In this document: in pieces, positions 335 through 48,036 of the stretch | Layout of the letters: the number at the start of each line of letters is the position of its first letter | Numbering within the stretch: position 1 is the stretch's first letter | Assembly: GCA_964638585.1 (NCBI GenBank) | Contig: CAZXAN010000002.1 | Coordinates: 73,291 to 137,290 of the forward strand | Reading direction: 5' to 3' | Source: an uncultured Candidatus Saccharibacteria bacterium | Lineage (GTDB): Bacteria > Patescibacteriota > Minisyncoccia > Phycocordibacterales > Phycocordibacteraceae | Length of the DNA stretch: 64,000 nucleotides | Notes under the pieces: generated by a model | Database searches by the model: none | What the model was told of the DNA's origin: nothing | The model's input: only the letters and a program-made list of their open reading frames with translations | Made by a program: the position numbers and the translations under genes

Positions 335-399
335 TGCGTTTGCAAATTAAATAAACTGTGTTTTTCCACAGAGTTTACTTTATAGACATGTGCATAAAT

Positions 400-443
400 C
401 ACTGTACCTTAATTCGTCCTATAGGCTATACTAAGGTACAGTG
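400..443. promoter_or_regulatory. 44-bp perfect palindrome, CACTGTACCTTA-N20-TAAGGTACAGTG, with a CCTATAGG core in the loop. It sits immediately upstream of the PaaX-like gene and overlaps the GTG at 441. Candidate operator.
   Basis: Seen directly: 12-bp arms are exact reverse complements, and the central CCTATAGG is itself palindromic. A second imperfect copy lies at 1036-1075. Confidence 0.5.
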
Positions 444-1019
444 AAAAGAGAACAAAAAAGTCGAGTGAAGATGAAGAATCTGCTTCTCAGATCAATTGCT
501 GTTACAGGAGTAATAAGTGTCGCGCTTATTGCACCGAAGATTACACGATTGTTGAAAGAGCTTGACCGTCCAGCAAAAAACCGTGCGCGACTTTATCGGC
601 GTATTACGCAAGGACTTAATCGACTGGAACAGAATGGTTTTGTAACGGTGACTGGCAAATATGCGGAACGTCGAATTGAGATAACGAAAAAGGGAAGAGA
701 GGTGATGGAGCAGATTGAGTTTGGAGAGTATGTCATTCCCGAGCCAGCTTTCTGGGATGGGAAGTGGAGAGTATTGATTTTTGATATAAGAGAAAAAAGG
801 CGACGCATTCGTACCCAGCTCCGACGGCTTCTCCATGGTGCTGGATTTGTTCGTGTTCAAGATAGCGTGTGGGTATATCCGTATCCATGCGACGAATTCG
901 TCTCTCTTGTGAGGGCGCATCTTAGAAGTGGTGTCGGTGAAATGAGAGTTTTTGTAGCCGAAGCATTGGAGTCGGACAAGGACCTTCGAGAACATTTCAA
1001 ACTATTTTCTTTACCATAA
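441..1019 (+). CDS. PaaX-family winged-HTH transcriptional regulator. The real start is probably the ATG at 471 (MKNLLL...).
   Basis: N-terminal wHTH-like segment (RARLYRRITQGLNRLEQNGFVT). The C-terminal stretch WDGKWRVLIFDIREKRRRIRTQLRRLLHGAGFVRVQDSVWVYP matches the PaaX C-terminal domain pattern. Confidence 0.55.
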   Translation: MKREQKSRVKMKNLLLRSIAVTGVISVALIAPKITRLLKELDRPAKNRARLYRRITQGLNRLEQNGFVTVTGKYAERRIEITKKGREVMEQIEFGEYVIPEPAFWDGKWRVLIFDIREKRRRIRTQLRRLLHGAGFVRVQDSVWVYPYPCDEFVSLVRAHLRSGVGEMRVFVAEALESDKDLREHFKLFSLP

Positions 1020-1035
1020 TCTGTCTACGACACCG

Positions 1036-1075
1036 TGTACCTTAATAGAGCCTATAGGACGCAGTAAGGTTAAGT
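1036..1075. promoter_or_regulatory. Second, imperfect copy of the GTACCTTAAT...CCTATAGG...TAAGGT palindrome, between the PaaX-like gene and rplI
   Basis: GTGTACCTTAATAGAGCCTATAGGACGCAGTAAGGTTAAG. It shares the arms GTACCTTA/TAAGGT and the CCTATAGG core with the element at 400-443. Confidence 0.4.
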
Positions 1076-1111
1076 TGATTACCGGAGGAAAGTGCTGTAA
1101 GCTATAAGTAT

Positions 1112-1555
1112 ATGAAAGTAATTTTGATTAAAGATGTGAAAGGGATGGGGCGCGCGCATGACCACATAGAGGCCAAAGATGGTCATGCCTTAAACTATCT
1201 AATACCTAAGAAGCTCGCCATACCTGCGACACCAACGTCTGTTAAAGAGGCTGAGACTAGGCGCAAGCAGGTGGTGGAACGTGGAGCTGTTGATGCCGCA
1301 CTTCTGACCCAGAATCTGGCGTCACTCGCAGAATCTCGCATTGTTATTAAAATGAAGGCGAACGAAAAAGGCCATCTCTACGATGCTGTTGGAGAGGCTG
1401 ACATAAGCAAGGCGGTTAAAGAGCAGGCGCGCATTGACTTGCCAGAAGATGTCATAAAACTGGAGAAGCCTATTAAAGAGCTTGGCACGTTTGACGTCCC
1501 AGTGGCGTCTAGCGACACATTCGGAAAGTTTTCTATCACGATTGAAGCGGAATAA
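1112..1555 (+). CDS. rplI: 50S ribosomal protein L9
   Basis: MKVILIKDVKGMG...ALNYLIPKKLA... is typical of the L9 N-domain. A GGAGGA RBS lies 12 nt upstream. Confidence 0.9.
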   Translation: MKVILIKDVKGMGRAHDHIEAKDGHALNYLIPKKLAIPATPTSVKEAETRRKQVVERGAVDAALLTQNLASLAESRIVIKMKANEKGHLYDAVGEADISKAVKEQARIDLPEDVIKLEKPIKELGTFDVPVASSDTFGKFSITIEAE

Positions 1556-1561
1556 ATACGC

Positions 1562-1640
1562 GAGAACACAAGTAACAAAAACGGTCGCGCTCCGGGCCGC
1601 TAGGCCAAGTCTAACTACCATTTTTGTTACCTGTGTTCTC
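1562..1640. terminator. Long inverted repeat between convergent rplI and rpmA. The arms are 20 bp with one mismatch. Probable bidirectional terminator.
   Basis: GAGAACACAAGTAACAAAAA ... TTTTTGTTACCTGTGTTCTC, with an A-run inside one arm and a T-run inside the other. Confidence 0.5.
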
Positions 1641-17584: not shown

Positions 17585-18951
17585 GACCCTTTCACAGCCT
17601 CGTTTGTGCTTAGGAGAGTATCAATACGATTCATATCGCGAGGGAATGGTGTCGCTTCTTTCACATTCGGTATCTCTAACATTCGTGCTGTGAATCGTTC
17701 AACGCCTGTTGATGAGCCTCCGTGTGGTGGCATCCCATATTTAAATGCTTGTAAGTAGAAAGAGAATTTTTCTGGATCAAGCTTCCTGCTCTTCATCCTA
17801 GAAATCAGGTCATCATAATTATGAATGCGCTGTGCTCCGCTATTTATCTCAAGACCTCTGAAGAGGAGATCAAAGCCACGCGAGTACGGCGCTTCCGTCG
17901 GGTCTTCGTAGGTATAAAACGCCCGTTTGGCGGTTGGGTATCTCGTGATGAATACAAAATCAGAGCTGAGATGCTTCTTTGCATATTCGCAGATTTGTTT
18001 CTCGTCATCAGGTGCCATATCGTTCGTGTCTTCAATAGTTCTGTTGAACTCCTTGGCAATAATCTCGTGTGCCTCGTTCAGTGTGAAAACAGGAATAGAA
18101 TCTGGGATGAGTGGAAGCGAAGAGCCGAAACGAGCGAACATGTCCGAGTGCTTCTCGCCCACTGCCTGTACTGTGTCGCGTATAGCGTTTTCAAGCACCT
18201 GCATAGGCTCTCGCTCGTTCTCTATAAAACCCATTTCAAAATCTAGACAGGTGGCCTCGCTCATGTGGCGTGTCGTCGCACTCTTCTCAGCGCGGAATAT
18301 TTTAGCTACGGTAAAGGCTCTCTCAAAGACTCCGACCATTATTTGTTTATAAAATTGCGGTGAAGTGGCGAGATATGCTGTCTTGTCGTTATAGTAATCA
18401 ACCTTGAACACGGCGGCTCCGCCCTCGGCGTCGCCGCCCACGAGTGCCGGTGCTTGGAACTCGGTAAAGCCCTGTCTCTGTAACGACTGTCGGTACGCAT
18501 CTACTATCGTCGCCTGTAGCGTGAACATGTCGCGACTGCGGTTACTGCGGAGCGTAAAGGGTCGATAATCAAACAGTGTGTCCAGATTAACTTCAGTATC
18601 TTTTTCAAACGGCAATTCCTGCGCTTGCGAGAGCACAGTGATGGTTGTTACCTCAAGCTCCACTCCGCCATTCAACCCTTCAACTCGCATTTTCTCCGGT
18701 CTCTCGTTTACTATCCCCCCAACCTGAACTACCCACTCGGGTCGCAGAGTCTGCGCGGTGGTAACCGCCTCGGCATGGTTTGGCAGGCATACAGCCTGGA
18801 CCTTCCCCGACCTATCGCGAATGTCCAAAAAAACTAGCTTCCCATGGTCCCTCCTCACATCCACCCAGCCACTAATGGATACCGTCTCGCTAACGTGACC
18901 AGCCAACTCTCCAATAAGTATTCGTTCCATAATTTGATTATGCCACACCAA
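17581..18951 (-). CDS. aspS: Aspartate--tRNA ligase, archaeal/eukaryal type (short form, possibly non-discriminating)
   Basis: N-terminal OB fold (GWVDVRRDHGKLVFLDIRDRSG). Class II motif FRAEKSATTRHMSEATCLDFEMGF is of the type-2 AspRS kind. 456 aa. Confidence 0.75.
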   Translation of the reverse strand: MVWHNQIMERILIGELAGHVSETVSISGWVDVRRDHGKLVFLDIRDRSGKVQAVCLPNHAEAVTTAQTLRPEWVVQVGGIVNERPEKMRVEGLNGGVELEVTTITVLSQAQELPFEKDTEVNLDTLFDYRPFTLRSNRSRDMFTLQATIVDAYRQSLQRQGFTEFQAPALVGGDAEGGAAVFKVDYYNDKTAYLATSPQFYKQIMVGVFERAFTVAKIFRAEKSATTRHMSEATCLDFEMGFIENEREPMQVLENAIRDTVQAVGEKHSDMFARFGSSLPLIPDSIPVFTLNEAHEIIAKEFNRTIEDTNDMAPDDEKQICEYAKKHLSSDFVFITRYPTAKRAFYTYEDPTEAPYSRGFDLLFRGLEINSGAQRIHNYDDLISRMKSRKLDPEKFSFYLQAFKYGMPPHGGSSTGVERFTARMLEIPNVKEATPFPRDMNRIDTLLSTNEAVKGS

Positions 18952-20170: not shown

Positions 20171-20256
20171 TGGTGCGCCGGGCAGGATTCGAACCTGCGT
20201 AGGCCGAAGCCGCATCGTTTACAGCGATGTGTAATTGACCACTCTACCACCGACGC
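20171..20256 (-). tRNA. tRNA-Tyr (anticodon GTA), class II with a long variable arm; CCA is encoded
   Basis: Hand fold of the minus-strand sequence GCGTCGG-TG-GTAG-AGTGGTCAA-TTAC-A-CATCG-CTGTAAA-CGATG-CGGCTTCGGCCTAC-GCAGG-TTCGAAT-CCTGC-CCGGCGC-A-CCA. The acceptor stem is 7 bp with one G-U pair, and the T-loop is TTCGAAT. Confidence 0.85.
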
Positions 20257-24502: not shown

Positions 24503-24705
24503 TATTTAGCAGTATATAGCATACAAACTCCTTCAACAAACTATGTGGGAGGCAAATGTACTTATAAGAGAATCAGGAGATGTTTGAAATGACGCCAGAG
24601 CTTCTGGTGTTGTGCGAGCGATAGCGAGACCGCGGAGCATGAGAAGGCCTTCTTCGTGGGCTTCAGATTGAAAATGTTCCTGCATTTGTAAATCTTGTCT
24701 AAAAA

Positions 24706-24750
24706 CGAATGTTCGTTATTTCTCACGGTCGTGTGAGATAACGAACATTT
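24706..24750. promoter_or_regulatory. Inverted repeat AATGTTCGTTATTTCTCAC-GGTCGT-GTGAGATAACGAACATT. CACGGTCGTG recurs 58 bp downstream and CACGGTT once between. Candidate operator for the downstream (minus-strand) membrane-protein/dnaJ unit.
   Basis: About 18-bp arms with a single 2-nt bulge. Decamer CACGGTCGTG at about 24724 and 24790. Confidence 0.4.
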
Positions 24751-24842
24751 GGTTTGCAAAACAAAAGTATCACGGTTATCCGCTATAACCCACGGTCGTG
24801 GCATATTGCGGATATGTGACACTATTACAGACAAAACAAAAC

Positions 24843-25181: not shown

Positions 25182-27095
25182 CTATTTTTCTTTAAACTCG
25201 GCATCGGTAGGACCACTGGATTCTGGAGGCTGGTCGCTGGAGCCTGGAGTCCCGCCCGAGTCAGATCCGCCAGCTGGCGGAGATGGTGTCTCTGACTGCT
25301 TGGCCATTATCTCGCCAATCTTCATTAGAGCATACGAGAGCGTCTCAGTAGCAGTTTTGATAAGCGCCGCGTCTTCGCTCGCACGTGCAGTTTTAAGTGC
25401 GTCAATTTTGTCCTGTACATCTTTCACAACCTCTGCTCCCGCCTTCTCGCCATAATCTTTAATCGCCTTCTCGCCTGCATAGACTGCCTGGTCGGCAATG
25501 TTCCTCGCTTCTACAAGCGTCTTGCGCTTCTCATCTTCAGCCGAGTTCGCCTCTGCATCGGCCTTCATCTTCTCGATGTCTGCTTTTGAGAGTCCCGTTG
25601 ATCCTTCTATTCTTATTGACTGTTCTTTGCCACTAGCCTTCTCTTTGGCTTTTACAGTTAAGATACCGGACGCATCAATATCAAACGTCACCTCTACCTG
25701 TGGCATACCGCGAGGCGCCGGTGGAATACCGTCCAGCATAAATTTACCCAGTGACTTATTATCCGCGCTCATTGCGCGCTCGCCCTGCGTGATATGTATC
25801 TCTACTGACGCTTGATTATCCGCCGCGGTTGAAAAGGTTTGAGAACGCGAGGTCGGTATCGCTGTATTTCTCTCTACCAACTTGGTCGCGACGCCACCCA
25901 TAGTCTCTATAGATAGAGAAAGTGGGATGACATCAACAAGCAGAATATCCTTCACATCGCCTTGTAATATTCCAGCTTGAATCGCCGCACCGATAGCCAC
26001 GACCTCGTCGGGGTTTACGCTCATGTTAGGCTTCTTGCCAAAAAACTTCTCTACTTCTGTCTGGATTTTCGGCATTCTGGTCTGCCCGCCCACGAGTATT
26101 ACTTCGTTAATATCACCAATTTTAAACGGTGATGCCTCCATCGCGCGCTTTGTGATCGCCATTGCGCGATCAATAAATTCTCCCGCAAGGTCCTCAAGTT
26201 TCGCACGTGTCATCTTAATCAGTAGGTGTCTCGGCCCTGATGCATCTGATGTGAGAAATGGGATATTAATCTCTGTCTCCATTGCAGAAGAGAGCTCTAT
26301 CTTGGCTTTTTCAGCCGCTTCGTCCAAACGCTGTCTCGCTAGAGCATCAGTACGAACATCTATGCCGCTTTCCTTCTTAAACTCGTCCGCGAGCCAATTA
26401 ATAATTTTCTGATCAATGTCTTTACCTCCGAGGTGCGCATCGCCATCAGTGCTTTTTACTTCTATCACGTCTCCACCAACCTCCAGCACAGAGATGTCAA
26501 ACGTCCCTCCACCGAAGTCAAATACAGCAATCTTCTCGTCTTTCTTTTTGTTAAAACCGTATGCAAGCGCGGCAGCCGTCGGCTCGTTGATGATGCGCTT
26601 CACCGTGAGTCCAGCGATTTCCCCTGCAGCTTTTGTTGCACTTCGCTGATCATCGTTAAAGTATGCGGGCACCGTGATAACTGCCTCAGTAATCTTCTCT
26701 CCAAGCTTCGCTTCTGCGTCTGCCTTCAGCTTCCCGAGTATCATCGCCGAGATTTCTTCAGAGCGATACCACTTGTCAGTCATCTTAACTTCTACTCCGC
26801 CAGTGTCGCCCTTACGCATTTCAAATGGGACCACTGCCTTATCCTTCTGCACTTCTGCTTCGTCAAATGTGTGCCCAATAAATCTCTTTATTTGAAAGAT
26901 TGTGTTCAGAGGATTGGTAACAGACTGTCGCTTAGCGAGTGTGCCGACGACTCTCTCGCCATTCTTCCCTATCGCCACTATTGAAGGCGTCGTGCGAGCG
27001 CCTTCGGCGTTCTCTAAGACGCGTGGCTCGCCACCCTCTACGATAGCCATAGCCGAGTTAGTTGTACCCAAATCTATTCCGAGAATTTTTGACAT
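25182..27095 (-). CDS. dnaK: Chaperone DnaK (Hsp70)
   Basis: [11 protein letters not shown]..., DLGGGTFD, and the full Hsp70 length. Confidence 0.95.
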
Positions 27096-39851: not shown

Positions 39852-39881
39852 TCGCATTTATTTTATCGACTTCAACTTGAT

Positions 39882-39917
39882 GTCGGAAATTTCATCCTAT
39901 AGGACGAAATTTCCGAC
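39882..39917. promoter_or_regulatory. Perfect hairpin GTCGGAAATTTC-ATCCTATAGGAC-GAAATTTCCGAC between the convergent HAD gene and ung. The loop carries the same TCCTATAGGA palindrome as the elements flanking the PaaX-like gene.
   Basis: 12-bp perfect arms. No downstream T-run on either strand, so it is not a canonical intrinsic terminator. Confidence 0.5.
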
Positions 39918-39923
39918 AAATGA

Positions 39924-40631
39924 TTAGAGCCAATTTATTGGAGTTTCGTTGTGAGAGATGAGGTACTCGTTCGCTTTGGAGAAATGCTTACAACCAAAGA
40001 AACCGGAGTAGGCAGAAAATGGCGAGGGGTGCGGGGCCTCTAGCACGAGGTGCTTGGTGCCGCTGTGCCCTCCCGTAGCCTTGGCGTAGGAGGGGTCGAT
40101 GTGCGAGCCTTTTTGTTTGGCATAGTTGCCCCAGAGCATAAAAACTAAATTTTCGCGCTCGTCTGAAAGCGCCTTAATAACCGCATCAGTAAACTCCTCC
40201 CATCCCTTCCCTTGATGCGAGCCGGCACTGTGCGCGCGCACAGTCAGGGTTGCATTCAACAATAAAACTCCCTGCTTAGACCAATGCTCGAGATCACCCT
40301 TCTTCGCCAAGGCTTCGAAGGGCAAAGAGCAATCTGTTGAAAGCTCTTTGAATATGTTTTGCAAAGAAGGCGGAACGGCTACGTTGTCGTTCACAGCAAA
40401 ACAGAGTCCATTCGCCTGGCCCACACCGTGATATGGGTCCTGTCCTAAAATTACTACTTTTACTTTATCAAACTGGCACAAGTCAAAAGCGCGAAAAATA
40501 TTTTTCGGCGCTGGATACACTACTCCCTCTTTGTATTCTTTCTTCACAAACGCAGTTAAGTCAGCAAAGTATTGCTTCTCAAATTCACCCTCCAACTTCT
40601 CTCCCCACGACTGCTCTATCTTAACGTTCAT
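39924..40631 (-). CDS. ung: Uracil-DNA glycosylase (family 1). The probable start is MNVKIEQ; the ORF track extends to 40727.
   Basis: GQDPYHG water-activating loop and a C-terminal HPSPFS leucine-intercalation loop. Confidence 0.8.
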   Translation of the reverse strand: MNVKIEQSWGEKLEGEFEKQYFADLTAFVKKEYKEGVVYPAPKNIFRAFDLCQFDKVKVVILGQDPYHGVGQANGLCFAVNDNVAVPPSLQNIFKELSTDCSLPFEALAKKGDLEHWSKQGVLLLNATLTVRAHSAGSHQGKGWEEFTDAVIKALSDERENLVFMLWGNYAKQKGSHIDPSYAKATGGHSGTKHLVLEAPHPSPFSAYSGFFGCKHFSKANEYLISHNETPINWL

Positions 40632-40717
40632 TGGGAGAGTATAATCCAAAAATGAAAACAACGTGTGGCCTGGTTTATAACCAAACCGCACGTTGCTGAA
40701 GGAACCTGTCGAGCCAG

Positions 40718-41146
40718 TTACTTCCACGCCACTCTGAATCCGAGATGTGTGGCGGACTCTTTGTACCGAATTGCGAAAGCGTTGCGGATGGCCTTTCTGC
40801 GCATCGTGGCTTTCCTCTCTGGTCTATTGACCAGAAAATGAAGAGCCGTACACCCGACGACCGAGCTGATAATCAGGGCAAGTAAAATCCTGGGAATAGG
40901 CGTTTCGAGTCCCGACAAATCGAAAAATCCAAACGCCGCCAGTGCCGCGCAGAACGATATGAAGGTACCCAGCTCGGTATTTCTAGCCCAAAAACTCTGG
41001 GAAAGATGCGCTCTGTTGAATATTTCCCATGCGGTGCGGGCCGTATCAAGCCGCTCTTTTGCGACCGCTGTTTTTGCCGTAGCGACAATTTTTTCTGCTT
41101 CTGTTTCGGGCGCTACCTGTTGGCAATTAGGGCAGATTTCTATCAT
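40718..41146 (-). CDS. Hypothetical protein with an N-terminal CPNCQ zinc-ribbon-like motif and two C-terminal TM helices
   Basis: ORF with mixed features. No family assigned. Confidence 0.35.
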   Translation of the reverse strand: MIEICPNCQQVAPETEAEKIVATAKTAVAKERLDTARTAWEIFNRAHLSQSFWARNTELGTFISFCAALAAFGFFDLSGLETPIPRILLALIISSVVGCTALHFLVNRPERKATMRRKAIRNAFAIRYKESATHLGFRVAWK

Positions 41147-46588: not shown

Positions 46589-47983
46589 TTACACAGGCAG
46601 ATTAGGAGGGGCTTCGCCGACTGCCGAAGTGATTCTCTCAAGGCTTGGGCTAGCTGACGAGAGCGATGGAATGTGATAAATAGTTGCGAGCTCCTCTGTG
46701 CTCATTACCATCGCATCTTTTGCGTGCTTGCCACCCTCAAAAAACGGATCGTAGAAGAACTGTCGGCGCCTGTATGCCTCTACCAACTCTTTGCGGAAAT
46801 GCGCCTTTCTCTTGTCAGCCCAAAATTCCCAAGGATAATCATCAAATGTTTTCATCCACGCAGTTGAGTTGATTCCATTCCACCCCTCTGTCGTAAAAGG
46901 CTTGAAGAGTCCTATCAAGTGACTAATGCTGATGCCGTTAACATTTTCAGGCTTAGCTATATATATACCGCGCGCGCCAACATCAAATGCGAGCTTAGAA
47001 GTATTTCTGTCAATCGCAGCCATCTTCTCTGACTCGCCCTTTGTCGGGTTCGGGAACCCTGGGCGCTCTTCTCCGGTCACGGGGTCAATATAAGGATTGC
47101 GTGCGTTCTTGCGAATCTCTTCTATGAGTTCTTGTCCTTCATCTTTCCAAGTATATGGCTTGCCCTTTGCATTCATCTTCGTGCTATTAATACCTGCCGT
47201 AGTCGTCCCATATCTCGCTTCGCCACGATGAGCGCGGATAATAAACTGTAGCCATAAATACTCTCCCTTGCCGACTGAAGCCATAAATTCTATAACATTT
47301 GCAAGCGGGTCTACTTGCTCCGGCTCCTTCTGTACTTTATCAAGCCCGTATTCAATATAAGTTTTAATCGGGAGCGGAGCGGCGGCAGTGTGTATAAAAT
47401 CACAACCCCACACGACATAATCCTCGTCTCGTGCGGTTATTGTACGCGTATAATCAGGCGCCTCAACTATTTGCACACCAGGATACTGCGCATACATTTG
47501 CGATTCAATAATCCGACGAAATTCAGCACGCGCCCATATAAAGAAATGTACTCTGCCTTCAAACGAGGCCATTTCAAGAGAGTAGAATGGTCGCGTACCG
47601 CCCTTAAATCGTGAATACCATGTCGCTTCACCGCCCGTGAGGTGGATTGATGCGAGAAATGCCTCCATGGCGAGAGGTGTCTTCACCAAGTTGCGAGGAG
47701 GTTTAATCTCAAGCAGAATATATTTCTGTTTCGCGATGAATTCTGAACGTTTAAGAACTATCCACATCTTCCACGCTCCGAGACATAACAAAAATGGTAG
47801 CCATACCGGTGCAATAAAAAGAGCCATAGAAATAGCAGACTGAACGGCACTATACATAAATACAAGTGACATCAGCAGAACAGATAGGCCGAGAATAAAT
47901 GTTGGCCACGGCTCAAATCGCACACCGGTTTTTTCAGCTATTTTGCCTTGAGCATTCTCAAGACCATGCATGAACGGCATCAT
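46589..47983 (-). CDS. Membrane protein with two N-terminal TM helices and a large soluble domain; hypothetical
   Basis: 464 aa. No family recognised by eye. Confidence 0.5.
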   Translation of the reverse strand: MMPFMHGLENAQGKIAEKTGVRFEPWPTFILGLSVLLMSLVFMYSAVQSAISMALFIAPVWLPFLLCLGAWKMWIVLKRSEFIAKQKYILLEIKPPRNLVKTPLAMEAFLASIHLTGGEATWYSRFKGGTRPFYSLEMASFEGRVHFFIWARAEFRRIIESQMYAQYPGVQIVEAPDYTRTITARDEDYVVWGCDFIHTAAAPLPIKTYIEYGLDKVQKEPEQVDPLANVIEFMASVGKGEYLWLQFIIRAHRGEARYGTTTAGINSTKMNAKGKPYTWKDEGQELIEEIRKNARNPYIDPVTGEERPGFPNPTKGESEKMAAIDRNTSKLAFDVGARGIYIAKPENVNGISISHLIGLFKPFTTEGWNGINSTAWMKTFDDYPWEFWADKRKAHFRKELVEAYRRRQFFYDPFFEGGKHAKDAMVMSTEELATIYHIPSLSSASPSLERITSAVGEAPPNLPV

Positions 47984-47998
47984 TGAGTCTAGTATAAC

Positions 47999-48036
47999 AA
48001 AAATTCGGCGACCCTATAGGGTCGCCGAATTTTTGT
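47999..48036. terminator. Bidirectional intrinsic terminator AATTCGGCGACCC-TATA-GGGTCGCCGAATT, flanked by an A-run and a T-run
   Basis: 13-bp perfect stem. CAAAA upstream and TTTTTG downstream. Confidence 0.55.

What the first reader, a model, noticed from the sequence alone, without database searches (positions are those of the whole stretch)
393..1080. PaaX-like regulator gene bracketed by two copies of a 40-44 bp palindrome with a CCTATAGG core
A perfect 44-bp palindrome, CACTGTACCTTA-N20-TAAGGTACAGTG at 400-443, lies just upstream of the regulator's start and overlaps the GTG the ORF track uses. The likely ATG is at 471.

An imperfect copy with the same arms and the same central CCTATAGG lies between the regulator's stop and rplI (1036-1075). 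A dimeric wHTH regulator flanked by two copies of a long palindrome with a palindromic core strongly suggests autoregulatory operator sites, possibly also gating read-through into rplI.

The same TCCTATAGGA palindrome forms the loop of the perfect hairpin at 39882-39917.
Basis: partly seen in the sequence, partly recalled or inferred. Interest (0 to 1): 0.6.

Follow-up and report, generated by a model that had tools for sequence, protein, structure and literature searches.

The report
Regulator gene bracketed by its palindromes
A small DNA-binding protein gene in a Kaiserbacteria (candidate phyla radiation) genome sits between two copies of its own roughly 40-bp palindrome, and every sampled relative of the gene shows the same arrangement, with extra copies of the palindrome scattered at other gene borders and even inserted in frame into uvrC.

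Summary
The element at 400-443 is not a perfect 44-bp palindrome. It has three parts: 12-nt arms, a CCTATAGG core, and 6+6 nt that do not pair. The start codon is most likely GTG 441 inside the right arm, not ATG 471. The hairpin at 39882 is a third element with the same layout but different arms.

The protein is 192 aa: a winged helix plus a Cas2-like PaaX_M domain, with no PaaX_C domain. It belongs to a large Patescibacteria family. In 38 of 38 homologous loci, at 31-82% identity, the gene is flanked upstream and downstream by palindromes. These differ between paralogue classes but match within a locus. The upstream copy carries a -10 box about 8 nt before the start codon, which implies a leaderless mRNA and autorepression.

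An unbiased scan also found about as many solo copies. They abut gene ends and starts, vary between relatives, and include a 45-nt in-frame insertion in uvrC.

Best reading: a PaaX-like dimer binds its own promoter-operator and a second cognate site. The palindromes behave as low-copy insertional elements, as in REP/RAYT systems. No description was found in the searchable literature.

The parts
399..444 (.). Upstream three-part palindrome. Arms are 399/400-411 and 432-443/444. The core CCTATAGG is at 418-425. The non-pairing spacers are at 412-417 and 426-431.
   Evidence: I3, I21. Folds as RNA at -20.1 kcal/mol, z -6.0. The same element type lies upstream of all 38 homologues.
403..432 (+). 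Putative promoter inside the palindrome. The -35-like hexamer TGTACC is at 403-408, or GTACCT at 404-409. The -10 TATACT is at 427-432, 8 nt before GTG 441.
   Evidence: TAnnnT occurs at +6..+11 from the centre in 22 of 22 and 32 of 38 upstream copies. The figures are 5 of 25 and 8 of 39 for downstream copies. The consensus scan did not flag it because the -35 is weak. This part is an inference.
441..1019 (+). Gene for a 192-aa winged-helix plus Cas2-like (PaaX_M) protein. It probably starts at GTG 441-443 inside the right arm. An in-frame TAA lies at 432-434, and the internal ATG is at 471.
   Evidence: PF20803 at 5.5e-18. The N-terminal extension is conserved and the ATG is missing in many homologues. 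AF2 model at pLDDT 73.7. Best Foldseek match is PaaX 8a39, and the Cas2 domain matches 5zyf. Gene callers used ATG 471.
1005..1019 (+). C-terminal codons and stop, TTTTCTTTACCATAA (F S L P *). They resemble a decayed left arm. In L005 and L011 the live arm GGTTTACCTTAG supplies the last codons and the stop.
   Evidence: stop-to-centre distance 9 in L005 and L011. The same '..SLP*' tail is supplied to TatD in L066 and L121. This part is an inference.
1034..1075 (.). Downstream copy. The left arm TGTACCTTA is at 1036-1044, the core CCTATAGG at 1051-1058, and the degenerate right arm TAAGGTTAA at 1065-1073.
   Evidence: No RNA hairpin forms (z +0.11). A downstream copy is present in the homologous loci, 0-160 nt after the stop.
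1075..1111 (+). rplI's own promoter-like region: TTGATT (1075-1080), 17 nt, TAAGCT (1098-1103), 8 nt, then ATG 1112. It abuts the right arm of the downstream palindrome.
   Evidence: Read from the sequence. The same TTGATT-16/17-TAnnnT-6/8-ATG layout occurs in L005, L008, L011 and L031 at variable distance from the palindrome. Not flagged by the consensus scan. This part is an inference.
356..371 (+). Small terminator-like hairpin after the S41 peptidase gene (stop at 334), upstream of the palindrome.
39881..39918 (.). Solo element with the same geometry and CCTATAGG core but TGTCGGAAATTTC arms. It lies 6 nt beyond the stop of ung (39924..40727, minus strand), between convergent genes.
   Evidence: (I6). 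Relatives carry a TTTACCTTA-class element at the same place next to ung (L081, L137, L083).

Best explanation
The 192-aa protein is a short PaaX-like DNA-binding protein. It has an N-terminal winged helix and a Cas2-like domain that probably forms the dimer. It has no effector-binding C-terminal domain.

Inferred binding mode: as a dimer it recognises a roughly 40-bp three-part site. Each winged helix reads one 8-12-bp arm. The arm centres are 31 bp apart, about three helical turns. The central CCTATAGG is read by the dimer core or the basic N-terminal tail.

The upstream site contains the gene's own promoter (-10 TATACT at 427-432) and its start codon (GTG 441). Transcription would therefore start at or next to the start codon, giving a leaderless mRNA. 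A bound protein would occlude RNA polymerase, giving autorepression.

The downstream site is a second cognate site at the 3' border of the gene. The most likely roles are a roadblock or insulator, or a looping partner of the upstream site. In this window it also touches the -35 of rplI.

The palindrome is not private to the gene. It belongs to a low-copy family of class-specific elements that have been inserted at other gene borders and into uvrC.

Shown here: the anatomy, the co-occurrence, the co-variation, the promoter features, the fold, and the insertional behaviour of the elements. Inferred: binding, dimer geometry, repression, and the role of the downstream copy.
For: Protein:
- PaaX_M at 5.5e-18 plus weak winged-helix hits.
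- The AF2 model shows a winged helix plus a beta-alpha-beta-beta-alpha-beta domain.
- The best PDB match is E. coli W PaaX (8a39), followed by PadR-DNA complexes and Cas2.

Operator geometry: the E. coli PaaX operator is TGATTC-N27-GAATCA, and PaaX represses its own promoter (PMC9493321). Here the site spans 38 bp (403-440).

Co-occurrence and co-variation:
- All 38 homologous loci from genomes (31-82% identity) have a cognate palindrome on both sides.
- Within-locus identity is 0.90 against 0.52 between loci, with 0 of 10000 permutations reaching it. The locus's own downstream copy ranks first for 25 of 38 upstream copies. Spearman correlation is 0.78.
- Paralogues in one MAG (L019, L026, L031) each carry their own class.

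Promoter and start:
- TAnnnT at +6..+11 and a start codon at +20 occur in 22 of 22 upstream copies, against 5 of 25 downstream copies and 21 of 174 solo orientations. The count is 32 of 38 in genome loci.
- The in-frame N-terminal extension is conserved.

DNA rather than RNA:
- Complementarity is confined to core and arms, with a non-pairing 7-nt spacer.
- G.U and A.C mismatches are balanced: 54 against 41, and 37 against 48.
- The window's downstream copy does not fold (z +0.11).
- No Rfam family matches.
Against: - No binding data exist, and the consensus scan does not call the promoter because its -35 is weak.
- Co-variation is partly confounded by shared ancestry.
- A plain autoregulator does not need a downstream copy, yet all family members have one.
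- Solo copies mostly lack promoter features. A third of the gaps between a solo copy and a flanking gene's 3' end are 15 nt or less (18 of 55).
- Solo copies vary between close relatives. They are present after trpS in L067 and L091 but absent in the window at 82% protein identity.
- One solo copy is a 45-nt in-frame insertion in uvrC.
- None of these solo-copy features is explained by a classical regulon.
- The family keeps the Cas2-type FDI and QxSVW motifs with an invariant Asp (D115). E. coli PaaX lacks them. This hints at an activity beyond binding.
- Gene callers placed the start at ATG 471.
Confidence: 0.6

Rival explanations
1. A REP/RAYT-like system with an unrelated protein. The palindromes are small non-autonomous mobile elements. 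The winged-helix plus Cas2-like protein is the single-copy, vertically inherited enzyme that binds, cuts and spreads or maintains its cognate palindromes. Binding at its own promoter is a side function. The two flanking copies mark the ancestral element, as REPs flank RAYT genes.
For: Four features of RAYTs are listed in PMC3337134: short genes, flanked by their repeats, each type tied to its own repeat type, and paralogues in one genome always distinct. All four are matched here.

Evidence that solo copies are inserted and lost:
- About as many solo copies as flanking copies were found: 60 against 37 in 736 kb, and 49 internal orphans.
- The 45-nt element is inserted in frame in uvrC in 48 of 120 close homologues and absent in 67. 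This needs at least 20 state changes on a neighbour-joining tree.
- The element is present or absent after trpS and after another gene.
- The same position after ung holds different classes.
- The arms supply stop codons and '..SLP*' tails to TatD and to the protein itself.

The Cas2-type Asp is invariant (D115), and the cas2 model scores above its cut-off.
Against: - The protein has no HUH/Tyr transposase motifs, and no transposase family is hit.
- No Cas2-fold protein is known to transpose DNA.
- Copy number is low. There are 2 strict sites in a 693-kb contig and about one extra element per 70 kb, far from the tens to hundreds typical of REPINs.
- No target-site duplication is visible at the uvrC insertion.
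- The neighbour-joining tree of closely similar UvrC proteins is poorly resolved, so the count of gains and losses is soft.
- No catalytic activity is shown.
Confidence: 0.25
2. The palindromes act as RNA. They would be 3'-end hairpins (terminators or stabilisers) or processing sites that punctuate polycistronic transcripts. The protein would bind or cleave the hairpin through its Cas2-like domain.
For: - Many copies fold strongly as RNA: z -6 to -11 for 397-446, 39875-39924, and the downstream copies of L025 and L036.
- 18 of 55 gaps to a flanking gene's 3' end are 15 nt or less.
- The right arm carries stop codons in all three frames.
- Some Cas2 proteins are reported as RNases (own knowledge).
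Against: - The window's downstream copy does not fold (z +0.11).
- The 7-nt spacers are not complementary, and there is no excess of G.U over A.C mismatches.
- There is no U tract, and the terminator scan does not flag the sites.
- In L053 and L111 a canonical GC-rich terminator follows the palindrome.
- The upstream copy has a position-specific -10 box, which is a DNA-level feature.
Confidence: 0.07
3. The palindromes are bound by some other factor, or are structural DNA such as cruciforms or recombination sites. The gene merely happens to sit between them.
For: - Binding by this protein is not demonstrated.
- The CCTATAGG core is shared by classes with different arms and by a terminator-like palindrome at 47997-48036. 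The core could therefore serve a common factor.
Against: - Arms change with the protein sequence.
- Paralogues within one genome each sit between their own class. Any other factor would need a matching set of paralogues.
- The association holds for 38 of 38 loci down to 31% identity.
Confidence: 0.05

Closest known systems
PaaX, repressor of phenylacetate catabolism (E. coli; PDB 8a39; Pfam PaaX_M PF20803)
   Same: Both have an N-terminal winged helix followed by the Cas2-like middle domain, with a shared WDGKW motif. Both use an operator of two inverted half-sites far apart: TGATTC-N27-GAATCA in PaaX, and 8-bp arms with 22 bp between them here. PaaX represses its own promoter by occlusion (PMC9493321).
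   Different: This protein is 192 aa, against 316 aa for PaaX. It lacks the PaaX_C effector domain and scores 34.5 against the 264.55 cut-off of the PaaX equivalog. There are no paa genes nearby. It keeps the Cas2-type FDI and QxSVW motifs that PaaX lacks. Its sites have a third, central element. Cognate sites lie on both sides of the gene in every family member.
Cas2 (CRISPR adaptation protein)
   Same: The ferredoxin-like beta-alpha-beta-beta-alpha-beta fold matches (5zyf, TM 0.56-0.61 normalised to Cas2). TIGR01573 scores 28.0, above its 24.5 cut-off. The Asp at the end of strand 1 is conserved (D115). Cas2 is a dimer that lies on duplex DNA in the Cas1-Cas2 complex (own knowledge).
   Different: There is no cas1 and no CRISPR array (neighbours). 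The domain is fused to a winged helix. The sequence match covers only 36 residues. The 'Cas2' name that NCBI gives to homologues is therefore misleading.
REP/REPIN-RAYT systems
   Same: A short gene is flanked by its own palindromic repeats. Each protein type has its own repeat type. Paralogues in one genome are distinct. Inheritance is vertical. Solo repeats lie at gene ends (PMC3337134).
   Different: The protein fold is unrelated and has no HUH/Tyr motifs. Copy number is low. The repeat is a three-part 40-44-bp site rather than a 20-35-nt hairpin pair. The upstream repeat doubles as promoter and start codon.
Rickettsia palindromic elements and other intragenic MITEs
   Same: A palindromic element is inserted in frame into a housekeeping gene (uvrC) and translated as a conserved peptide (PMC10969869).
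   Different: The element is 45 nt, against about 150 bp for RPEs. There is one intragenic site rather than dozens. The element has an associated cognate protein gene.
Insertion sequences with regulatory terminal repeats; lambda immunity region (OL and OR flanking cI)
   Same: Recognition sites bracket the gene of the protein that binds them. The upstream site overlaps the promoter and start, and in some homologues the stop codon lies inside the downstream site (own knowledge for IS elements and lambda).
   Different: The genes keep fixed, syntenic positions next to housekeeping genes: rplI, infB, rpoC/dnaG and pheST. No relatives are found in viral contigs. Each end is a complete palindrome, not a single inverted repeat.

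Membership tests
PaaX family (TIGR02277 / Pfam PaaX_N-PaaX_M-PaaX_C) | Central Cas2-like PaaX_M domain | tested here: met
   PF20803 at 5.5e-18, 65.3 bits against a cut-off of 24, over residues 104-179. The WDGKW motif aligns to 8a39.
PaaX family (TIGR02277 / Pfam PaaX_N-PaaX_M-PaaX_C) | N-terminal winged-helix DNA-binding domain | tested here: met
   Weak winged-helix Pfam hits over residues 45-93. The AF2 model shows helices 11-22, 27-40 and 48-64 plus a wing at 68-81. Foldseek matches PaaX 8a39 and PadR-DNA 5x11.
PaaX family (TIGR02277 / Pfam PaaX_N-PaaX_M-PaaX_C) | C-terminal helical effector domain (PaaX_C) that binds phenylacetyl-CoA | tested here: not met
   The protein ends about 13 residues after the PaaX_M match. 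There is no PaaX_C hit. The family is uniformly 180-200 aa, against 316 aa for PaaX.
PaaX family (TIGR02277 / Pfam PaaX_N-PaaX_M-PaaX_C) | Score above the equivalog cut-off, and paa catabolic gene context | tested here: not met
   TIGR02277 scores 34.5 bits against a cut-off of 264.55. The neighbours are an S41 peptidase, rplI and rpmA.
PaaX family (TIGR02277 / Pfam PaaX_N-PaaX_M-PaaX_C) | Operator of two inverted half-sites about 27 bp apart that overlaps the regulated promoter | tested here: inconclusive
   The geometry and the promoter overlap are present (PMC9493321). Binding itself was not testable.
Cas2 | Ferredoxin-like Cas2 fold with a conserved Asp after strand 1 | tested here: met
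   Strands and helices span 109-173. 5zyf aligns at rmsd 2.7-2.8. D115 is invariant in 73 sequences. TIGR01573 scores 28.0, above 24.5.
Cas2 | Encoded next to cas1 and a CRISPR array | tested here: not met
   The 64-kb window has no tandem repeats. No cas genes appear among the neighbours in 38 loci.
REP/REPIN-RAYT | Protein is an IS200/IS605-type HUH/Tyr transposase | tested here: not met
   Only PaaX_M, Cas2 and winged-helix families are hit.
REP/REPIN-RAYT | Gene flanked by cognate palindromes, one repeat type per protein type, paralogues distinct | tested here: met
   The criteria come from PMC3337134.
REP/REPIN-RAYT | Repeats dispersed in tens to hundreds of copies per genome | tested here: not met
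   There are 2 strict sites in a 693-kb contig and about 10 further solo elements in 736 kb. The window holds 3 strict-geometry elements.
REP/REPIN-RAYT | Repeats are mobile (insertion polymorphism) | tested here: inconclusive
   The uvrC in-frame insertion is present in 48 and absent in 67 of 120 close homologues. Presence or absence also varies after trpS. No target duplication or recent identical copies were seen.
Intrinsic (Rho-independent) terminator | GC-rich stem followed by a U tract | tested here: not met
   The scan does not flag 399-444 or 1034-1075. The downstream copy has z +0.11. The arms are AT-rich and no T run follows.

The most novel reading that the evidence does not exclude
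The winged-helix plus Cas2-like proteins of Patescibacteria and their class-specific 40-45-bp palindromes form a second, independently evolved REPIN/RAYT-type partnership. In this reading a domesticated Cas2-fold nuclease recognises its own palindromes through the winged helix, controls its own gene through them, and inserts or maintains solo copies at gene borders and inside genes such as uvrC. This would give the Cas2 fold a DNA-mobilising or DNA-processing role outside CRISPR. It would also give streamlined CPR genomes a previously unrecognised class of persistent intragenomic elements.
Probability: 0.25. Interest if true: 0.9.

Novelty: new variant of a known kind. Interest (0 to 1): 0.72.

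Why it matters
Transcriptional control in candidate phyla radiation bacteria is almost unknown. This family is large: at least 1408 clusters at 50% identity. It sits next to core genes such as rplI, infB, rpoC/dnaG and pheST. It is routinely mislabelled 'Cas2' or 'PaaX'.

The analysis gives the family a predicted binding site, a predicted promoter type (leaderless), a corrected start codon, and a set of protein-site pairs that differ in specificity. That makes a recognition code directly testable by EMSA or DAP-seq.

The solo copies and the in-frame uvrC insertion suggest the sites themselves spread. If the protein is responsible, this would be a new kind of repeat-protein partnership and a non-CRISPR function for the Cas2 fold.

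Tried and rejected
- **Exact look-up of the 192-aa product.** It found nothing. The 182-aa product from ATG 471 is what gene callers recorded.
- **Other paralogues in the window.** tblastn of the protein against the window found none.
- **First AF2 run.** With 30 close homologues the model was poor (pLDDT 49.6). A second run with 73 diverse sequences was usable.
- **Sequence search of the PDB.** It gave only weak hits: 3kfw at 0.011 and 0.00088, and 8a39 at 0.12 and 0.038.
- **Rfam.** The only match above a gathering threshold in the whole window is the tRNA at 20174-20256; in permissive mode on 300-1700 there was only noise.
- **Viral contigs.** No relatives were found, so a phage immunity-repressor origin was set aside.
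- **Literature.** Searches for PaaX with Cas2-like, PaaX with Patescibacteria, and stand-alone Cas2 with winged helix found no description.
- **CRISPR array.** Rejected, because there are no tandem repeats.
- **CTATAG avoidance, as by a restriction system.** Rejected. There are 22 copies against 12.8 expected.
- **DNA-repair regulon.** ung, uvrB, uvrC, TatD and RNase HI are neighbours of solo sites. I considered this but did not adopt it. Most such sites lie at 3' ends or inside genes and lack promoter features, and many other neighbours are unrelated.
- **Helical phasing of the two flanking sites.** Centre-to-centre distances run from 604 to 651 bp and show no phase preference (coordinates).
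- **Crude ORF calling.** It gave spurious reverse-strand ORFs. I replaced it with a codon-usage caller.
- **13-nt match at the trpS 3' end.** It is within chance after multiple testing.
Full report
**1. What is in the sequence**

Positions 400-411 (CACTGTACCTTA) and 432-443 (TAAGGTACAGTG) are exact reverse complements. With one more base on each side they are 13 nt (I21). CCTATAGG lies exactly in the middle at 418-425. The six bases on either side of the core (ATTCGT and CTATAC) do not pair. The element is therefore a three-part palindrome, not a perfect 44-mer.

A second copy lies between the stop codon (1019) and rplI (1112). Its left arm TGTACCTTA is at 1036-1044, its core at 1051-1058, and a degenerate right arm TAAGGTTAA at 1065-1073. 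A pattern of 22 specified bases matches only these two places in 64 kb, against 0.00 expected.

CCTATAGG occurs five times against 0.44 expected. Four of the five are at the centre of a long palindrome. With a strict geometric filter (core 4 of 4, arms at least 7 of 8 at +-12-19) the window has three hits (400, 39878, 47995), against 0.15 expected.

**2. The gene**

The ORF 441-1019 encodes a protein with a PaaX_M (Cas2-like) domain at 5.5e-18 and weak winged-helix matches in its N-terminal half. There is no PaaX_C domain.

NCBIfam places it far below the PaaX equivalog (34.5 against 264.55). It scores just above the cas2 cut-off (28.0 against 24.5, over 36 residues). This explains why NCBI calls homologues 'Cas2'.

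An AF2 model built on 73 diverse homologues (pLDDT 73.7) shows a winged helix followed by a beta-alpha-beta-beta-alpha-beta domain. Foldseek ranks E. coli W PaaX (8a39) first, then PadR-DNA complexes, Rv0674 and Cas2.

The family is large and uniform in length. There are 1408 representatives at E <= 1e-10, nearly all 180-200 aa. Named sources are Kaiserbacteria, Paceibacterota and other Patescibacteria. No relative was found in viral contigs. The window has no CRISPR-like tandem repeats.

**3. Start codon and promoter**

In all sampled homologues an in-frame ATG or GTG sits at the outer end of the right arm of the upstream palindrome. The frame opens only two codons earlier, at the TAA of the arm. 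The 10-20 codons that follow encode a conserved basic peptide.

The codon that corresponds to ATG 471 is ATA, ATT, ATC or CGT in L007, L008, L013, L016, L018, L025, L027, L029, L030, L032 and L038. GTG 441 is therefore the likely start, although gene callers chose ATG 471.

A TAnnnT hexamer lies at +6..+11 from the palindrome centre (TATACT at 427-432 here), 7-8 nt before the start codon:
- 22 of 22 upstream copies from metagenomes and 32 of 38 from genomes have it.
- 5 of 25 and 8 of 39 downstream copies have it.
- 21 of 174 solo-copy orientations have it.

This is the layout of a promoter that produces a leaderless mRNA. It lies wholly inside the palindrome. rplI and the gene at 46589..47983 show the same '-10, 7-8 nt, ATG' layout. 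The generic sigma-70 scan does not flag these promoters because their -35 hexamers are weak.

**4. Comparative test**

A genome-collection scan returned 38 loci with homologues at 31-82% identity. Every one has a palindrome upstream, and all have one 0-160 nt after the stop or overlapping it.

The arms differ between classes. Examples are TTTACCTTA, GTTCCATA, TGTATCAAT, TGTCGGAAT and ATAACCTTAT. In distant members the core differs too (CGATCG, GCGGCCGC, CACGTG, ACGGCCGT). The two copies at one locus nevertheless match:
- Identity over arms and core is 0.90 within loci against 0.52 between loci, with 0 of 10000 permutations reaching it.
- The locus's own downstream copy ranks first for 25 of 38 upstream copies.
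- Site identity tracks protein identity (Spearman 0.78).

Several MAGs hold two or three paralogues, each with its own class (L019, L026 and L031; L010 and L012; L006 and L021).

Complementarity is high at +-1-4 and +-12-19 and near random at +-5-11. G.U and A.C mismatches are balanced. The window's downstream copy does not fold as RNA (z +0.11). This points to recognition of duplex DNA.

The arm centres are 31 bp apart. The E. coli PaaX operator is TGATTC-N27-GAATCA, and PaaX represses its own promoter (PMC9493321).

**5. Genomic position**

The genes are not scattered at random. Orthologous groups keep fixed places:
- S41 peptidase, then the gene, then rplI (the window and six other loci).
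- Between dnaG and rpoC.
- Upstream of infB-rbfA.
- Upstream of a tRNA.
- Near pheST.

This speaks for long vertical inheritance.

**6. The palindromes elsewhere**

I scanned metagenome contigs for TACCTTA-N7-CTATAG-N7-TAAGGTA without reference to the gene. The scan gave 120 loci with 135 sites. Of these:
- 22 are upstream copies and 25 are downstream copies of family genes.
- 49 lie well inside contigs with no family gene nearby.
- 39 are too close to a contig end to judge.

In the same 736 kb, 20 further elements of identical geometry but other arms were found. Eighteen of them have a CTATAG core, and half flank other family genes.

Copy number per genome is low. One 693-kb contig has two strict sites.

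Solo copies are mostly intergenic (57 intergenic, 12 intragenic):
- 18 of 55 gaps to a flanking gene's 3' end are 15 nt or less.
- Five copies carry the start codon of the next gene. One of these is uvrB in L127, with a TATACT box and a basic N-terminal extension like that of the family.
- In TatD (L066, L121), and in the family gene itself (L005, L011), the left arm supplies the last codons and the stop ('..SLP*').

The window's own C-terminus, F-S-L-P-stop (1005-1019), looks like a decayed arm.

**7. Turnover and insertion**

Ten of the twelve intragenic sites are one site in uvrC. There the 45-nt element AGGTTTACCTTA...CCTATAGG...TAAGGTAAACCTC is read in frame as RFTL.SPIG..KVNL.

Among 120 close UvrC homologues (70-100% identity), 48 carry this insert and 67 have nothing there (QYPR-AF-DAKEY). 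Five carry other inserts, and the two examined at DNA level (L165, L166) are GC-rich palindromes. On a neighbour-joining tree built from the rest of the protein, the insert needs at least 20 state changes. That tree is poorly resolved, so this number is soft.

Three further observations point the same way:
- After trpS, L067 and L091 have the element but the window (82% identical TrpRS) does not.
- Another gene shows the same presence/absence pattern.
- Immediately after ung, L081, L137 and L083 carry a TTTACCTTA-class element. The window carries the TGTCGGAA-class element at 39881-39918.

In L053 and L111 the element is followed by a separate canonical terminator, so it is not itself the terminator.

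**8. Interpretation**

Gating of rplI is possible in this window, because the right arm touches the -35 at 1075. It is not conserved, because the distance varies from 0 to about 35 nt.

- The bracket is a family-wide rule.
- The palindromes also exist as labile solo copies that have been inserted at gene borders and inside a gene.

That combination is the one described for REP/REPIN-RAYT systems: short genes, flanked by their repeats, one repeat type per protein type, and paralogues always distinct (PMC3337134). Here it occurs with an unrelated protein and at low copy number.

The family keeps the Cas2-type FDI and QxSVW motifs with an invariant Asp that E. coli PaaX lacks. An enzymatic role therefore cannot be excluded.

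I commit to the binding and autorepression model (0.6). I hold the REP/RAYT-like role of the protein as the main rival (0.25). RNA-level and third-party explanations rank low.

**9. Novelty**

No paper in the searchable library links PaaX-like or Cas2-like proteins of Patescibacteria to flanking palindromes. No Rfam family covers them.

I rate the finding as a new variant of a known kind: a PaaX-type autoregulated repressor with long-spaced inverted repeats. There is a real chance that it is something further from known systems.

Noticed in passing
window 24702-24755 and 24780-24810: Two palindromes of about 45 nt lie 25 nt apart, each with a CACGGTCGTG core. The inner 26 nt of the first are about 20 of 26 identical to the palindromes that flank paralogues L029, L030 and L038. 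They lie between dnaK (25182-27095, minus strand) and a small membrane ORF and dnaJ. No family gene is nearby. They are probably solo elements of another class, which would imply further paralogues elsewhere in this genome.
   Followed up: partly
window 47997-48036: A perfect 40-bp palindrome has the same geometry and a CCTATAGG centre, but a GC-rich stem between A and T runs. It is terminator-like (-30.5 kcal/mol, z -10). It lies between two minus-strand genes. On the minus strand it is followed by TATACT, 7 nt, then the ATG of gene 46589..47983.
   Followed up: partly
window 1562-1640: A long hairpin has 24-nt arms (92% complementary) and a 31-nt loop. It lies between the convergent rplI and rpmA genes. 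The region recurs in L006, L010 and L013 (a spurious-ORF cluster common to those loci). No Rfam family matches. It could be a bidirectional terminator or a small RNA.
   Followed up: partly
L049:1554-1598, L064, L163, L165, L166 (uvrC): One spot in UvrC, after 'QYPR', is a hot spot for in-frame palindromic inserts. Of 120 close homologues, 48 carry the 45-nt class-A element, 67 carry nothing, and 5 carry other inserts; the two examined at DNA level are GC-rich palindromes (L165: CGCCTGCCTGC...GCAGGCAGGCG; L166).
   Followed up: yes
window 1075-1114; window 47983-48000 (minus strand): rplI and at least one other gene have a -10-like hexamer 7-8 nt before the ATG and no Shine-Dalgarno sequence at a usable distance. 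This suggests leaderless mRNAs are common in this organism.
   Followed up: partly
window 18918-18940: At the 3' end of trpS there is a 13-nt match (GTTCCATAATTTG) to the arm plus spacer of the L010-type palindrome. Relatives L067 and L091 carry a complete class-A element at this position. The match is within chance after multiple testing, but the position is suggestive of a decayed element.
   Followed up: partly
L127:4368-4470: uvrB starts at the GTG of a class-A palindrome with a TATACT box. It has a 16-aa basic N-terminal extension (VRKDKNKNRKARRLRM) that resembles the N-terminus of the family protein. It looks as if the promoter-start module had been copied in front of uvrB.
   Followed up: partly
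L066:560-610, L121:976-1020 (TatD); L005, L011 (family gene): The left arm of the palindrome overlaps the 3' end of unrelated genes and supplies their last codons and stop ('..SLP*'). The right arm TAAGGTAAAGTGA has stop codons in all three frames.
   Followed up: partly
homologues P0026, P0031, P0042, P0054 and others: Public annotation names family members 'CRISPR-associated endonuclease Cas2' or 'PaaX'. Neither name fits: there is no cas or CRISPR context, no PaaX_C domain and no paa genes.
   Followed up: yes
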